Of a stretch of 18,927 nucleotides of DNA, positions 9,517 to 18,515 are shown in pieces. Origin of the DNA: a virus (taxonomy: Duplodnaviria > Heunggongvirae > Uroviricota > Caudoviricetes); IMG/VR virus record IMGVR_UViG_2872152978_000012. One strand, 5' to 3'. Numbering within the stretch: the first letter of the stretch is position 1; each line of letters opens with the position of its first letter. The position numbers were made by a program, and so were the translations under genes. A model generated the notes under the pieces. The model worked only from the letters and a program-made list of their open reading frames with translations, did no database searches and was not told the DNA's origin.

Positions 9517-9914
9517 CGCTTCAGTTCCTGTATCAGCAGAGTCAGGAGCTTTTCGCTGACATTGCCATTGAAGCGGAGCGTCCCGTGCCGGAACGTTACC
9601 TCACAGCTGATACTGAGGGTTTCCGGATCCTCTGCGAGCGATTCTGGCTGTTCGGCAGCTGCATCGAGAGTCACAGGAAGTAGCTGGGGGCTCTCTGAAG
9701 AAGGTAATAGCAGCTTTCCCTCGCGCCATTGTTGTCGCCATTTGAACAACAGATTGGCGCTAATGCCATTTTCAAGAGCAAGTTTTGAGATGGATATCCC
9801 GGGTTCACAGGAGGCAGCAACGAGCTGCTGTTTAAATTCGGGAGGATAATTAGGGCAGCCTTTTCGCCTGCCGGGATTCACATTTTTCTGCATATCTGAC
9901 ACTTTGGTTCCCAC
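9513..9914 (-). CDS. IS66-family OrfA (TnpA), copy 2
   Basis: 133 aa, one substitution relative to copy 1 (N to S). Confidence 0.8.
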   Translation of the reverse strand: MGTKVSDMQKNVNPGRRKGCPNYPPEFKQQLVAASCEPGISISKLALENGISANLLFKWRQQWREGKLLLPSSESPQLLPVTLDAAAEQPESLAEDPETLSISCEVTFRHGTLRFNGNVSEKLLTLLIQELKR

Positions 9915-10043
9915 TACTTATTTGGTGGACACCACTTTGTCTAATTCGTCAGATTCTGACCAGACGGTTCAGGCTGTACGCTGATATGACTTTCCGTGTC
10001 AAACCGGAATCTCTAATTTTGACGATTTTCTTTTTAGGTTTAA

Positions 10044-10230
10044 TTCCCTGAGGGCGACGTAGCAGTAAATCCGACGGTGAATCACGCTGATATTCGCGGG
10101 TTGGATACCGCATTACAGAGGTCCGTCATATGAGCCTGCCACTTTCTTACGTCGCGAATCAGCTTTGTTCCGCCGTCGCCAAGCGCTAACGTGGGTTACT
10201 CTTGTACCGGGCTACGTCGCCTTCAGGGAA
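10044..10230. repeat. 20-bp near-perfect inverted repeat flanking a 147-bp segment, in the 3' flank of the IS110-family transposase
   Basis: ttccctgagggcgacgtagc at 10044-10063 matches the reverse complement of 10211-10230 (gctacgtcgccttcagggaa) at 19 of 20 positions. Confidence 0.6.
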
Positions 10231-10247
10231 CTGGTTATTCTCATTTT

Positions 10248-11375
10248 TTATTTGTGATATTGTGGTTGTTGTGCGACAGACATTGCTATTCGGCCCATAT
10301 CCCAGATAAAACCCGCCAGCTCACGTGCAACAGCAACAATTGTAATATTGACATTCTTTCCTTTGGCCTGAAGTTTTCGATACCTCTTACAAAGCCTGAG
10401 TTGAGCATCCCATGCTCTGTCAATGACGGGGCGGGGTAAATTTTCCTGCCTTTTTTGTATTGCCGGACTGATGCGTGCCGGATGACGGTAACTCCACGCT
10501 GCCTCGACCAATAGCTTTCTGGCATAGCTGTTTCCGGCTTTGGTAATGCTGCCCTGATGTCTGCTTCCACCCGATGAATATTCTGATGGCGTGATACCAA
10601 ACCATGACATCAGTTGTCGTGGATGTTCAAAACGGGTCAGATCACCCAGTTCAGAAATTAATCCAACCGCAGTAATAAACTGAATCCCTCGCATGGCTTG
10701 CAGCGCCTCTACTACCGGATACAGCCTCCATTCGGTAACGGCCTCCTTCAGGGCGGATTCCAGCCGTTCACATTGTGCCTGCCGGTCTTCTATTGTACGA
10801 CGGTGTTCGTCAAAAGCTAATTGTCGCCAGGGACTTTCGAATGAGTATTTGCTGAGCCAGCGTCGGTGTGCAGGGCCCCAATCTGCTCGCCCGACATAAT
10901 GGACCCCATGAACCAGAAGAAACGATTTCAGACGTTGCCTTGCATGCCGTAAATCATCGCGGGCAGATGCCCATGCCCGGGCCAAATCCCGGAATGCCTC
11001 ATCTTCAATGCCGGGTACGTAGACAGCAGAAAGATCTCCTGCACGCAGTGAACGCACAAGTCTGATGGCATCACGGCGATCGGTTTTAACCCGCTCCCCC
11101 GGTTTTTTCGGGATAAGTGAGGGGGCGCAGACCATGCAGTCAAAACCGGATTTCACCAGCCGACGATAAAGTCCATAACCACAGGGCCCCGCTTCATAAA
11201 CGATACTGACCTGCGATGACTTTGACCTGAGACGTTTACAAAGATTCTGAATATCAGTAGGTGATGTGCCAATTTTACCCATCAGTTCAACAGGTTCTGA
11301 ATTGATAGCATAAGCGACAGTAATCGATTCTTTGTGAACATCTAACCCGACGTACAATGTGTTATTGTTGTTCAT
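10248..11375 (-). CDS. IS110-family transposase (DEDD RuvC-like domain plus C-terminal Tnp domain), 375 aa
   Basis: MNNNNTLYVGLDVHKESITVAY... is a typical DEDD N-terminus. The C-terminal region has the family pattern ...SGGSRHQGSITKAGNSYARKLLVEAAWSY.... The start is taken at ATG 11375, which has a GGAGG ribosome-binding site; the longer ORF-track start at 11423 is probably not used. Confidence 0.85.
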   Translation of the reverse strand: MNNNNTLYVGLDVHKESITVAYAINSEPVELMGKIGTSPTDIQNLCKRLRSKSSQVSIVYEAGPCGYGLYRRLVKSGFDCMVCAPSLIPKKPGERVKTDRRDAIRLVRSLRAGDLSAVYVPGIEDEAFRDLARAWASARDDLRHARQRLKSFLLVHGVHYVGRADWGPAHRRWLSKYSFESPWRQLAFDEHRRTIEDRQAQCERLESALKEAVTEWRLYPVVEALQAMRGIQFITAVGLISELGDLTRFEHPRQLMSWFGITPSEYSSGGSRHQGSITKAGNSYARKLLVEAAWSYRHPARISPAIQKRQENLPRPVIDRAWDAQLRLCKRYRKLQAKGKNVNITIVAVARELAGFIWDMGRIAMSVAQQPQYHK

Positions 11376-11649
11376 GCTGGCCTCCGTGGTGGAAATACCG
11401 GGGTGTAGCAACAGCTCACCCATGCGGCTCTGACAACGATGTTAACCCGCGTTAAATATCCCACGTTGGCCAGCATCTGTCTCACGGAAAGTCATACTGC
11501 CTTACTGTTATCCGGTCGATAAAGTTATTCACCATGATAATAACGAAATCCCGGCAGGTCTTTAAAACAGTTCCGTAATAAATATCCGGTTTCATTCTTA
11601 TATGCCAGCAATGGCAGGGGTTCGCTCAACCTTAATTAAGGAGAAAAAC

Positions 11650-11847
11650 ATGATTACCAGTTATGAAGCCACTGTTGTAACTACTGATGACATTGTTCAC
11701 GAGGTTAATCTGGAAGGAAAGCGTATTGGCTACGTGATTAAGACAGAAAATAAAGAAACCCCATTCACTGTGGTTGATATCGACGGTCCATCAGGCAACG
11801 TTAAAACACTTAACGATGGTGTAAAAAAATGTGTCTGGTGCACATAG
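11650..11847 (+). CDS. small hypothetical protein (65 aa) with C-terminal CxxC, first gene of the phage early-region remnant
   Basis: Strong ribosome-binding site (AAGGAG, 7 nt before ATG 11650). Product MITSYEATVVTTDDIVHEVNLEGKRIGYVIKTENKETPFTVVDIDGPSGNVKTLNDGVKKCVWCT. The upstream Met at 11602 is probably not used. Function unknown. Confidence 0.5.
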   Translation: MITSYEATVVTTDDIVHEVNLEGKRIGYVIKTENKETPFTVVDIDGPSGNVKTLNDGVKKCVWCT

Positions 11848-18291: not shown

Positions 18292-18325
18292 AGACATTTG
18301 CAACTAATTGATTTCAAATGCAATT

Positions 18326-18359
18326 AAAAAAAGACCGAATACGATTCCTGTATTCGGTC
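18326..18359. repeat. attR: right copy of the 34-bp imperfect direct repeat; overlaps the SdsR terminator
   Basis: See attL. The right arm (tacgattcctgtattcggtcc) matches the bacterial SdsR 3' hairpin. Confidence 0.6.
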
Positions 18360-18427
18360 CAGAGAAATGGCTCTTGGAGAGAGCCGTGCGCTAAAAGTTG
18401 GCATTAATGCAGGCTTAGTTGCCTTGC
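18326..18427 (-). ncRNA. sdsR: SdsR (RyeB) small regulatory RNA, about 102 nt
   Basis: The minus strand reads gcaaggcaactaagcctgcattaatgccaacttttagcgcacggctctctccaagagccatttctctggaccgaatacaggaatcgtattcggtc plus a U-run, which matches my recollection of enterobacterial SdsR, including the 3' terminator hairpin. It lies between pphA and yebY as in E. coli. Confidence 0.75.
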
Positions 18428-18515
18428 CCTTTAAGAATAGATGACGACGCCAAGTTTTCCAGTTTGCGTGCAAAATGGTCAATAAAAAGCGTGGTGGTCA
18501 TCAGCTGAAATGTTA

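What the first reader, a model, noticed from the sequence alone, without database searches (positions are those of the whole stretch)
9984..11640. IS110-family element with structured non-coding flanks: candidate bridge/seek RNA, apparently inserted in the terminal repeat of an IS66 copy
IS110-family recombinases are guided by a non-coding RNA encoded in the element's non-coding end. Here both flanks of the transposase gene are long (about 264 bp on the 3' side, about 250 bp on the 5' side). The 3' flank contains a 20-bp near-perfect inverted repeat (10044-10063 and 10211-10230) enclosing 147 bp, which could form a long closing stem of a structured RNA. The adjacent IS66 copy ends 3 bp short of its terminal GTAAGCG, consistent with sequence-specific insertion into an IS end, a behaviour known for some IS110/IS1111 members.
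Basis: inference. Interest (0 to 1): 0.6.

Follow-up and report, generated by a model that had tools for sequence, protein, structure and literature searches.

The report
ISSso6 guide RNA targeting IS66 ends
This is a copy of the known insertion sequence ISSso6, whose 3' non-coding end encodes a folded guide ("bridge" or "seek") RNA whose loops spell out GTAAGCG, the tip of IS66-family elements. That explains why it sits inside the end of an IS66-family copy here; it is a well-supported but ordinary example of a mechanism described in 2024.

Summary
The element is ISSso6 (IS110 family, IS1111 group). Empty-site comparison bounds it by a shared CT dinucleotide at 9981-82 and 11501-02.

- **Non-coding ends:** the 3' end is 265 nt. 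The 5' end is 125 nt, not about 250; 11503-11640 lies outside the element.
- **Inverted repeat:** The fold is conserved in 35 distinct relatives: 96.9% of cells paired, 10 pairs with compensatory changes.
- **Target guides:** two segments of its first internal loop covary with the insertion sites of 18 independent guide families (0 of 5000 permutations for each). In ISSso6 they read UUAGCGCU and CGUAAG, which specify GTA-AG-CG(Y), i.e. GTAAGCG.
- **Insertion sites:** all 11 distinct sites with both flanks recovered have this motif, and 8 lie in IS66-family terminal repeats. In the window ISSso6 splits the ISEc22 left repeat; its last 3 bp (TAC) sit at 11503-05.
- **Donor guides:** AUAUCAG matches the element's right end plus the core. 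The right-donor guide is unresolved.

Durrant et al. 2024 (Supplementary Table 5) already list ISSso6 with a bridge RNA in its right end. The decoded guides and the IS66-end preference are the only increments I found.

The parts
9983..11500 (-). ISSso6 proper (1518 bp between the two copies of the core dinucleotide). The right end (RE) is at 9983 and the left end (LE) at 11500, in the orientation of the transposase gene.
   Evidence: 99.7-100% identical copies in E. coli and Shigella. Borders come from empty-site comparison and from 11 sites with both flanks.
9981..9982 (.). Core dinucleotide CT (AG in IS orientation) at the RE junction. It is shared by target and element.
   Evidence: Empty sopA site ...CCCAGCG-CT-TACATG versus occupied ...GCG-CT-GATATG... 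/ ...CTGC-CT-TACATG.
11501..11502 (.). Second copy of the core CT, at the LE junction.
10248..11375 (-). Transposase/recombinase gene (375 aa; DEDD RuvC-like domain plus Transposase_20 domain with the motif GITPSEYSSG).
   Evidence: Pfam hits; RefSeq annotation of identical copies; distant match to the IS621 and ISCro4 recombinase structures, E about 2e-5.
9985..9998 (.). Subterminal inverted repeat, RE arm (TATGACTTTCCGTG on the + strand).
   Evidence: 14 nt, 100% complementary to 11483-11496. The two arms change together in relatives.
11483..11496 (.). Subterminal inverted repeat, LE arm.
10040..10232 (-). Bridge/seek RNA domain (about 190 nt): basal stem P1 plus two stem-loops, each with an internal loop.
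   Evidence: z = -5.54. RNAalifold consensus over 35 relatives. 96.9% of cells paired against 35-46% when partners are slid, and 10 pairs with compensatory change. Own covariance model scores 199 bits on this strand and 33 on the opposite strand.
10211..10229 (-).
   Evidence: compensatory changes at alignment pairs 13-185, 16-182, 19-179
10045..10063 (-). P1 basal stem, 3' strand.
10132..10201 (-). First stem-loop, the target-binding domain: outer stems, an internal loop carrying both target guides, and an apical hairpin.
   Evidence: guide positions
10182..10189 (-). Right target guide, RNA 5'-UUAGCGCU-3'. It is complementary to the top strand of core plus right target (AG-CGCTAA).
   Evidence: Positions pairing with core and RT1-RT5 are complementary to the element's own target in 68-90% of cases, against 21-51% for other elements' targets. 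Permutation 0/5000. Top mutual-information diagonal RT1-5 with alignment columns 51-47.
10146..10151 (-). Left target guide, RNA 5'-CGUAAG-3'. It has the same sense as left target plus core (GTA-AG), so it would pair with the bottom strand.
   Evidence: LT-1 to LT-3 identical to the element's own target in 90-100% of cases, against 31-47% for other targets. Permutation 0/5000. Mutual-information diagonal LT-1..-3 with columns 89-87.
10073..10127 (-). Second stem-loop, the donor-binding domain (candidate).
   Evidence: Both stems are almost invariant, so support is by conservation only.
10084..10093 (-). Left donor guide AUAUCAG (same sense as the RE tip ATATC plus core AG), followed by CGU, which equals the first 3 nt of the right target (handshake-like).
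   Evidence: Exact 10-bp copy of the RE/target junction 9978-9987. AUAUCAG is present in every relative. The next nucleotide equals RT1 in 14 of 19 distinct combinations.
10062..10067 (-). Candidate right donor guide UACUGC (reverse complement of LE positions 1-6, GCAGTA), in the multiloop at the top of P1. Unresolved.
   Evidence: It is the only conserved antisense match to the LE. There is no covariation, because the LE is nearly invariant. Two of its bases are paired in P1.
9997..10002 (-). TTGACA in the RE, 14 nt from the tip. Candidate -35 box of a promoter formed at the circle junction (TTGACA, 17 nt, CAGTAT).
   Evidence: Conserved in nearly all relatives. The junction-promoter idea comes from ISEc11 in PMC11187229 and is inference here.
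11376..11474 (-). Conserved 5' leader fold. GCUGGCC (11468-11474) pairs with GGCCAGC (11376-11382), which abuts the AUG and overlaps the GGAGG Shine-Dalgarno sequence. Probably translational control, not a guide.
   Evidence: RNAalifold over 34 relatives: 25 pairs, 7 with compensatory change. Single-sequence z = -2.24. No diagonal covariation with targets.
9940..9980 (-). Inner part of the left terminal repeat of the ISEc22-like (IS66-family) copy, i.e. the right half of the ISSso6 target.
   Evidence: Intact ISEc22 ends in L005 and L006.
11503..11505 (-). Outermost 3 bp (GTA, read as TAC on the + strand) of the same ISEc22 terminal repeat, displaced by the ISSso6 insertion.

Best explanation
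The window holds a complete copy of ISSso6, an IS1111-group member of the IS110 family. Its 265-nt 3' non-coding end is transcribed with, or after, the transposase gene into a bridge/seek RNA of about 190 nt.

**Target reading.** The internal loop of the first stem-loop holds two guides.
[quoted passage not shown] - Together they read 5'-GTA-AG-CG(Y)-3', the conserved tip of IS66-family terminal repeats.

**Donor reading.** The second stem-loop carries AUAUCAG, which matches the element's own right tip plus the core. It would hold the excised circular element.

**Reaction.** The DEDD recombinase then exchanges strands at the AG/CT core. This inserts the element without a target duplication and leaves one core copy at each junction.

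In this window the reaction split the left terminal repeat of an ISEc22-like element 3 bp from its tip.

**Shown here:** the borders, the fold, guide-target covariation, and the target motif.
**Inferred from the family:** that the guide acts as RNA, that it is bound by the transposase, that there is a circular intermediate, and the chemistry of strand exchange.
For: - **Borders and core:** from empty sites and from 11 distinct insertion sites with both flanks, all reading GTAAG|...|AGCG(T/C).
- **Fold:** z = -5.54. The consensus fold in 35 distinct relatives has 96.9% of cells paired, against 35-46% when partners are slid. Ten pairs show changes on both sides.
- **Strand:** the covariance model scores 199 bits on the transposase-sense strand and 33 on the other. 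Many G-U pairs exist only on this strand.
- **Guide-target covariation over 18 independent guide families:**
  - Sum of longest matches is 102, against 55.1 +/- 5.1 when targets are permuted (right guide).
  - It is 93 against 59.1 +/- 3.9 (left guide). Both are 0/5000.
  - An unbiased mutual-information scan puts the two expected diagonals on top: LT-1..-3 with columns 89-87, and RT1-5 with columns 51-47.
  - Core variants are tracked: AA in the target goes with UU in the guide, and GG with CC.
- **Guide order:** the top-strand-pairing guide lies 5' of the bottom-strand-pairing guide, the order reported for IS1111-type seekRNAs (PMC11187229).
- **Donor match:** AUAUCAG equals the RE tip plus core in all relatives.
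- **Prior report:** Durrant et al. 2024, Supplementary Table 5, list ISSso6 as 'Detected Bridge RNA End: RE; group IS1111'.
Against: - No expression data exist. No sigma-70-like promoter was found just upstream of the RNA, so its 5' end and any processing are unknown.
- Rfam 15 gives no hit in either flank.
- The model built here does not hit the 3' end of ISEc11, which has an experimentally proven seekRNA. Similarity to proven seekRNAs is therefore architectural, not sequence-level.
- Donor recognition is only half explained. The right-donor guide could not be identified by covariation, and the best candidate (UACUGC) partly overlaps the P1 stem.
- Most stems are supported by conservation rather than by many compensatory changes.
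- ISSso6's own guides match natural sites beyond GTAAGCG(Y) only partly.
Confidence: 0.88

Rival explanations
1. The same conserved sequence acts as DNA, not RNA. Single-stranded element-end DNA would fold, and its loop bases would pair with the target, as the guide sequences in the ends of IS200/IS605 elements do.
For: Covariation between loop bases and targets cannot by itself tell U from T. G-T pairs are also tolerated in folded DNA. In L001 the guide-encoding DNA itself appears to have acted as a recombination site.
Against: For this transposase family the guide was shown experimentally to be an RNA that co-purifies with the protein and works in trans (PMC11187229; PMC11208160). IS110-family elements move through double-stranded circles rather than single-stranded intermediates (established knowledge). 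The transposase here has the DEDD and Transposase_20 domains, not an HUH nuclease.
Confidence: 0.04
2. The 3' structure is only a regulatory or stabilising 3' UTR element or terminator for the transposase mRNA. Target choice (GTAAGCG) would be read by the protein.
For: A long GC-rich stem sits directly after the stop codon. The P1 stem and both stems of the second stem-loop are conserved with little variation.
Against: There is no U-run after the stem: the following sequence is AAUUAAACCUAAAAAG, and the terminator scan found no terminator there on the minus strand. Transposases 71-81% identical insert at quite different sequences that match their own loop sequences. A protein-read target does not explain this.
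Confidence: 0.05
3. The non-coding end encodes a small protein (for example the 54-aa ORF at 9949-10113 on the minus strand).
For: ORFs of 54 and 82 aa overlap the region.
Against: The 54-aa ORF runs out of the element into ISEc22 DNA, so it cannot be a conserved element gene. Relatives differ by indels that are not multiples of three, and they vary in a pattern of paired stems and hypervariable loops.
Confidence: 0.01

Closest known systems
IS1111-group bridge RNAs predicted by Durrant et al. 2024 (Nature 630:984; PMC11208160)
   Same: The RNA is encoded in the long right end. The element has long subterminal inverted repeats and a short left end. Internal-loop guides pair with opposite strands of the target and overlap at a 2-nt core. 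The paper notes that in many IS1111 orthologues the donor-binding nucleotides sit in a multi-loop, which fits the only conserved antisense match to the left end found here. ISSso6 itself is listed in Supplementary Table 5 (bridge RNA end RE, group IS1111).
   Different: The held text and supplements give no guide assignment, structure or target for ISSso6. Those were derived here.
seekRNA of ISEc11, ISKpn4, ISPa11 and ISPst6 (Siddiquee et al. 2024, Nat Commun 15:5235; PMC11187229)
   Same: The non-coding region lies downstream. The top-strand-pairing segment lies 5' of the bottom-strand-pairing segment, and the two matches overlap in the target. Close relatives are naturally retargeted by replacing the loop segments while the stems stay the same. 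The RE carries a conserved TTGACA that could form the -35 of a promoter at the circle junction. The first stem-loop here (about 70 nt) and the whole fold (about 190 nt) parallel their 'peak' (about 82 nt) and 'long' (about 150 nt) RNAs.
   Different: No detectable sequence or structure homology to the ISEc11 3' end with the model built here. The transposase is longer (375 aa, against 330-350 for typical IS1111 members) and only about 20-24% identical to the listed ones. The seekRNA paper does not assign donor guides, whereas here AUAUCAG matches the right tip plus core.
IS621 bridge RNA (IS110 group; structures 8WT6-8WT9)
   Same: Two-loop logic (target loop and donor loop). A CT/AG core dinucleotide is included in the guide pairings. 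The left guides have the same sense as the top strand and the right guides are complementary to it. The recombinase C-terminal domains are distantly related (E = 2e-5).
   Different: [quoted passage not shown] In ISSso6 the RNA is in the right end and the order is reversed. IS621 has only 2-3 bp subterminal repeats.
IS4321/IS5075 (IS1111 group; Partridge & Hall 2003, cited in PMC11208160)
   Same: An IS1111-type element that specifically targets the terminal inverted repeat of another mobile element family, in one orientation.
   Different: Their target is the 38-bp repeat of Tn21-family transposons. Here it is the GTAAGCG tip of IS66-family insertion sequences.

Membership tests
IS110 family, IS1111 group insertion sequence | DEDD (RuvC-like) N-terminal domain plus C-terminal Transposase_20 domain with the G-x-x-P-x4-S/T-G motif | tested here: met
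   PF01548 (E = 2.6e-11) and PF02371 (E = 8.2e-24). The motif GITPSEYSSG is in the translation and aligns with PRRYESGSS of IS621.
IS110 family, IS1111 group insertion sequence | Subterminal inverted repeats of 7-17 bp with short terminal extensions | tested here: met
   14-bp perfect repeat at 9985-9998 / 11483-11496. The extensions are 2 nt (RE) and 4 nt (LE) relative to the borders. The arms covary in relatives.
IS110 family, IS1111 group insertion sequence | The longer non-coding region lies downstream of the transposase gene | tested here: met
   265 nt downstream against 125 nt upstream (borders; gene).
IS110 family, IS1111 group insertion sequence | Sequence-specific, orientation-specific insertion without a target duplication beyond the shared core | tested here: met
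   The empty and filled sopA sites differ by the element plus one CT. All 11 sites with both flanks carry GTAAG...AGCG in the same orientation.
IS110 family, IS1111 group insertion sequence | Circular intermediate with abutted ends forming a promoter | not testable with these tools
   Only a conserved TTGACA 14 nt from the RE tip and CAGTAT in the LE at a spacing of 17 nt (read from the sequence).
Bridge RNA / seekRNA, IS1111 type | Conserved structured non-coding RNA in the right end | tested here: met
Bridge RNA / seekRNA, IS1111 type | Two loop segments that pair with opposite strands of the target, overlap at the core, and covary with the target across relatives | tested here: met
   0/5000 permutations for each guide; top mutual-information diagonals
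Bridge RNA / seekRNA, IS1111 type | The top-strand-pairing segment lies 5' of the bottom-strand-pairing segment | tested here: met
   Right guide at RNA positions 44-51 and left guide at 82-87. The rule is from PMC11187229.
Bridge RNA / seekRNA, IS1111 type | Donor-binding segments matching both element ends | tested here: inconclusive
   The left donor guide AUAUCAG matches the RE tip plus core in all relatives, but neither side varies. The right donor guide is not identified; the candidates are UACUGC and CUGU.
Bridge RNA / seekRNA, IS1111 type | The RNA is expressed, binds the transposase and is required for transposition | not testable with these tools
   No RNA data. No own promoter was predicted.
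Bridge RNA / seekRNA, IS1111 type | Match to a curated covariance model | tested here: inconclusive
   Rfam 15 gives no hit at gathering or E <= 10 thresholds. I saw no bridge or seek RNA family among the results. Durrant et al. report detection with their own models.
Bridge RNA, IS110 group (IS621 type) | [quoted passage not shown] | tested here: not met
   The LE leader shows no guide-like covariation. The guides are in the RE and their order is reversed.

The most novel reading that the evidence does not exclude
ISSso6-type elements may use a variant of the bridge-RNA scheme.
- Only three of the four half-sites (left target, right target, left donor) would be read by internal-loop guides.
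- The right donor end would be recognised through the subterminal repeat, or through multiloop nucleotides.
- A 1-3 nt handshake-like extension of the left donor guide would read the first bases of the right target.
- As a side effect, the DNA that encodes the left donor guide would itself be a pseudo-end at which the element recombines, giving tandem right-end duplications (seen once, in L001).

Biologically, the element would be a specialised parasite of IS66-family termini, separating the outer 3 bp of the terminal repeat from the rest of the element.
Probability: 0.3. Interest if true: 0.45.

Novelty: already known. Interest (0 to 1): 0.27.

Why it matters
- It explains a local oddity of the window: an IS nested 3 bp from the tip of another IS follows from a guide RNA that reads GTAAGCG.
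- ISSso6 and its Burkholderiaceae relatives form a natural series of at least 18 retargeted guide pairs on one nearly constant scaffold. That series could help define guide rules for IS1111-type systems, which are less studied than IS621.
- It predicts that ISSso6 preferentially splits the terminal repeats of IS66-family elements in Shigella and E. coli. Whether that inactivates those ends is untested.
- For the field it is confirmation, not discovery. The mechanism was published in 2024, and ISSso6 is already listed as carrying a right-end bridge RNA.

Tried and rejected
- **Rfam 15:** scanned the whole window at gathering thresholds and 9900-11700 at E <= 10. Nothing relevant was found; the only hit was a chance miRNA match.
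- **Own covariance model (R1):** searched the window and 150 kb of a Shigella plasmid that also carries ISEc11. It hit only ISSso6 copies, so there is no detectable homology to the proven ISEc11 seekRNA region.
- **Right donor guide:** exhaustive 5-mer or longer matching of the RNA to both strands of the circle junction in 8 relatives, plus a mutual-information scan. The only conserved match is UACUG(C). There is no covariation, so this is left open.
- **Variable linker between the two stem-loops** (AUAUGA, 10123-10128): looked for a partner in the flanks, the ends and within the RNA. None was convincing.
- **Guide in the 5' flank:** the left-end leader is conserved and folded, but its mutual information with targets is low and scattered. 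Rejected as a guide.
- **Terminator reading of the stem:** no U-run follows it. Rejected.
- **Small-ORF reading:** rejected, because the ORF leaves the element.
- **Literature:** no paper in the held library links ISSso6 or GTAAGCG with IS110-type targeting.
Full report
**1. What is there**

The minus-strand ORF at 10248-11423 carries the two Pfam domains of IS110-family transposases: DEDD_Tnp_IS110 (E = 2.6e-11) and Transposase_20 (E = 8.2e-24). Megablast against complete E. coli genomes and against plasmids finds 99.7-100% identical copies. These are annotated 'IS110-like element ISSso6 family transposase' and are common on Shigella virulence plasmids. RefSeq calls a 375-aa protein starting MNNNN, which here is 10248-11375. 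The protein is distantly related to the solved IS621 and ISCro4 recombinases (E about 2e-5) over the C-terminal domain that carries the serine motif. Upstream lie the tnpA, tnpB and a truncated tnpC of an IS66-family element. Intact copies of that element are annotated ISEc22.

**2. Borders**

Copies in different contexts share sequence from 9978 to about 11505, but part of that shared stretch is target.
- An E. coli sopA gene interrupted by ISSso6 (L002) reads ...CCCAGCG-CT-GATATGAC...CATACTGC-CT-TACATGATATG...
- The uninterrupted gene (L004) reads ...CCCAGCGCTTACATGATATG....

The element is therefore 1518 bp (9983-11500) plus one extra copy of a CT dinucleotide (AG in the element's own orientation). 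That dinucleotide is shared by target and element, like the core of IS621.

Intact ISEc22 left ends read ...GGCTGTACGCTTAC followed by unrelated DNA (L005, L006). In the window the same repeat reads ...GGCTGTACG-CT-[ISSso6]-CT-TAC-TGTTATCC. ISSso6 therefore sits inside the terminal repeat, 3 bp from its tip, and the missing TAC is at 11503-11505.

The end coordinate (11640) is about 140 bp too far. The 5' non-coding end is 125 nt and the 3' end is 265 nt. A perfect 14-bp subterminal inverted repeat (9985-9998 / 11483-11496) lies 2 and 4 nt from the borders, as in IS1111-group elements.

**3. The inverted repeat and the fold**

The 20-nt repeat 10044-10063 / 10211-10230 is confirmed (95% complementary). 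The 193-nt transposase-sense RNA from 10232 down to 10040 folds at -79 kcal/mol, with z = -5.54 against dinucleotide shuffles.

A protein-guided scan of one genome per species returned 80 loci encoding transposases 71-81% identical, all in Burkholderiaceae. Their 3' non-coding ends share a block of about 190 nt that begins AGTTTCCTGAAGGCGGCGTAGCCCGG and ends CCCTCAGGAAATTC. A variable spacer and the conserved right tip TTGACACGGAAAGTCATATC follow.

RNAalifold on 35 distinct sequences gives the following fold:
- a first stem-loop with a large internal loop and an apical hairpin;
- a second stem-loop with an internal loop.

With the apical hairpin completed by hand, 96.9% of cells form standard pairs, against 35-46% when the partners are slid by 1-3 columns. 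Ten pairs show changes on both sides. The covariation score exceeds all 500 shuffles. Much of the support is conservation rather than covariation, and both stems of the second stem-loop hardly vary. A covariance model built from this alignment scores 199 bits on the transposase-sense strand and 33 bits on the opposite strand. Together with the many G-U pairs, this points to a transcript of that strand.

**4. Guides**

In the element's orientation every copy reads LT-AG-[xCAGTATGAC ... GTCATATC]-AG-RT, where LT and RT are the left and right target halves. Two hypervariable segments sit on the two sides of the first internal loop.

*The 5' segment* (ISSso6 UUAGCGCU, 10182-10189) is the reverse complement of core plus RT.
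- Across relatives, the positions opposite the core and RT1-RT5 are complementary to the element's own target in 68-90% of cases, against 21-51% for other elements' targets.
- It tracks core variants: AA goes with UU, and GG with CC.

*The 3' segment* (ISSso6 CGUAAG, 10146-10151) has the same sense as LT plus core.
- LT-1 to LT-3 match in 90-100% of cases, against 31-47% for other elements' targets.

I took one representative for each of 18 distinct guide pairs and permuted the targets among them.
- Right guide: summed longest match 102, against 55.1 +/- 5.1.
- Left guide: 93, against 59.1 +/- 3.9.
- No permutation out of 5000 reached either observed value.

An unbiased mutual-information scan of all RNA columns against all flank and end positions puts exactly these two diagonals on top.

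[quoted passage not shown] Their order, right guide 5' of left guide, is the reverse of IS621. It is the order reported for IS1111-type seekRNAs.

**5. The target of ISSso6**

The two guides specify 5'-(C)GTA-AG-CG(C)TAA-3'. Twelve left junctions were collected from the window, three E. coli loci and 146 kb of a Shigella dysenteriae plasmid. Eleven of them have both flanks. All carry GTAAG on the left and AGCG(T/C) on the right, in one orientation. The frequent T at RT3 would still pair with the guide G as a wobble.

GTAAGCG is the conserved tip of IS66-family terminal repeats. Eight of the 11 sites lie in such repeats: ISEc22-type GTAAGCGTACAGCC, GTAAGCGTCAACGGAGCACC, and GTAAGCGCCCCATCAGCG in a copy annotated ISSfl3-family. 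In every case the ISSso6 right end faces the inside of the IS66-family element. The other sites (sopA, a site next to IS91, and one more) simply contain the motif.

**6. Donor side**

On the 3' side of the second internal loop every relative has AUAUCAG, which has the same sense as the right tip ATATC plus core. That is the expected form of a left donor guide, but both partners are invariant, so it cannot be tested by covariation.

In ISSso6 the match extends to 10 nt (ATATCAGCGT, 10084-10093, equal to 9978-9987), because the next three bases equal RT1-3. Across 19 distinct combinations the first of these bases equals RT1 in 14. This resembles the handshake extension, as I recall it being described for IS621 (my own knowledge; the Durrant paper I searched does not contain the term). 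The same column also correlates with the first base of the left end in a non-pairing pattern, so shared ancestry may explain part of the signal.

I could not identify a right donor guide. The only conserved antisense match to the left end is UACUG(C) (10062-10067). It lies in the multiloop and partly inside P1. [quoted passage not shown] The subterminal repeat arms covary with each other.

**7. The 5' flank**

The 125-nt left-end leader is also conserved and folded: 25 consensus pairs, 7 with compensatory changes. Its closing stem pairs GCUGGCC (11468-11474) with GGCCAGC (11376-11382). That second strand abuts the AUG and overlaps the GGAGG Shine-Dalgarno sequence. Mutual information with the targets is low and scattered. 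I read it as a translational control leader (inference), not a guide. Bases 11506-11640 are host DNA.

**8. Comparison with what is known, and novelty**

The anatomy matches IS1111-type bridge/seek RNAs (PMC11208160, PMC11187229). ISSso6 is explicitly listed in Supplementary Table 5 of Durrant et al. 2024 with 'Detected Bridge RNA End: RE; IS110 Group: IS1111', and its transposase is in the data set of Siddiquee et al.. Neither paper gives its guides or target in the text and supplements I could search. No paper in the held library links ISSso6 or GTAAGCG to such targeting.

Rfam 15 has no matching family, and my model does not hit the ISEc11 3' end. It is not an IS621-type RNA: the end and the guide order are both wrong for that.

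Targeting of another mobile element's terminal repeat has a precedent in IS4321/IS5075 and the Tn21-family repeats.

**9. Verdict**

The increments are the exact borders and core, the decoded guides, the GTAAGCG / IS66-end preference, and a set of naturally retargeted relatives.

Not shown here: expression and processing of the RNA, its binding to the transposase, the circular intermediate, and how the left end is recognised.

Noticed in passing
L001 (E. coli FDAARGOS_943 chromosome, NZ_CP065615.1 501140-503582); corresponds to window 9978-10093: This ISSso6 copy carries a tandem duplication of the last 106 bp of its right end. The joint is exactly the 10-bp ATATCAGCGT that occurs both at the right-end/target junction and inside the RNA gene (left donor guide plus 3 nt). 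It looks like recombination at the guide-encoding DNA acting as a pseudo-end, or slippage on the 10-bp repeat.
   Followed up: partly
L089 (S. dysenteriae plasmid NZ_CP026809.1), model hits at 31368, 34358, 37348: Three ISSso6 copies are spaced exactly 2990 bp apart, i.e. a tandem array of [ISSso6 plus a fragment bounded by IS66-family ends]. At least 8 full ISSso6 copies lie in 146 kb of this plasmid.
   Followed up: no
window 5419-9980: A nest of IS66-family pieces. An ISEc22-like tnpA/tnpB/tnpC set lies on the + strand (5419-7750, with tnpC apparently split into two ORFs). Another IS66-family TnpA is at 7860-8279 (-). The copy hit by ISSso6 follows, with its tnpC truncated at about 8362.
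   Followed up: no
window 11376-11474 (minus strand): Conserved 5' leader structure of the transposase mRNA. Its closing stem covers the Shine-Dalgarno/start region (GCUGGCC with GGCCAGC, with a compensatory G-C to A-U change in 2 relatives).
   Followed up: partly
alignment A1 column 152 (window 10086) versus the first base of the left end (window 11500): The nucleotide after AUAUCAG has high mutual information (1.13 bits) with left-end position 1, in a pattern that is neither pairing nor identity (U with G, C with T, G with A). It is also identical to RT1 in 14 of 19 combinations. Unexplained; it may be shared ancestry.
   Followed up: partly
window 10123-10128 (minus strand; RNA linker AUAUGA between the two stem-loops): This linker is hypervariable among relatives, with no pairing partner found in the RNA, the ends or the flanks.
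   Followed up: partly
L007-L086: All 80 closest relatives of the ISSso6 transposase (71-81% aa identity) found in the one-genome-per-species collection are in Burkholderiaceae (Paraburkholderia, Caballeronia, Cupriavidus, Mycetohabitans), plus one Variovorax. This suggests the enterobacterial element came from that lineage.
   Followed up: no
window 11537-11566 (minus strand): A sigma-70-like site (TTTAAA, 18 nt, TATTAT) lies in host DNA just outside the left end and points into the element. It could drive read-through transcription of the transposase gene.
   Followed up: no
window 1365-1547 (-) and 18322-18465: Rfam hits at gathering threshold: CssrB (a Shigella chromosomal sRNA), and the overlapping SraC/RyeA (+) and SdsR/RyeB (-) pair. 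They place the window in a Shigella/E. coli chromosome.
   Followed up: no
L089 11773-12792: An ISEc11 copy (the IS1111 member with an experimentally proven seekRNA) lies between a gene annotated IS66-like TnpA and one annotated ISSfl3-family transposase, next to an ISSso6 copy. It may be a second IS1111-type element inserted in an IS66-family element.
   Followed up: no
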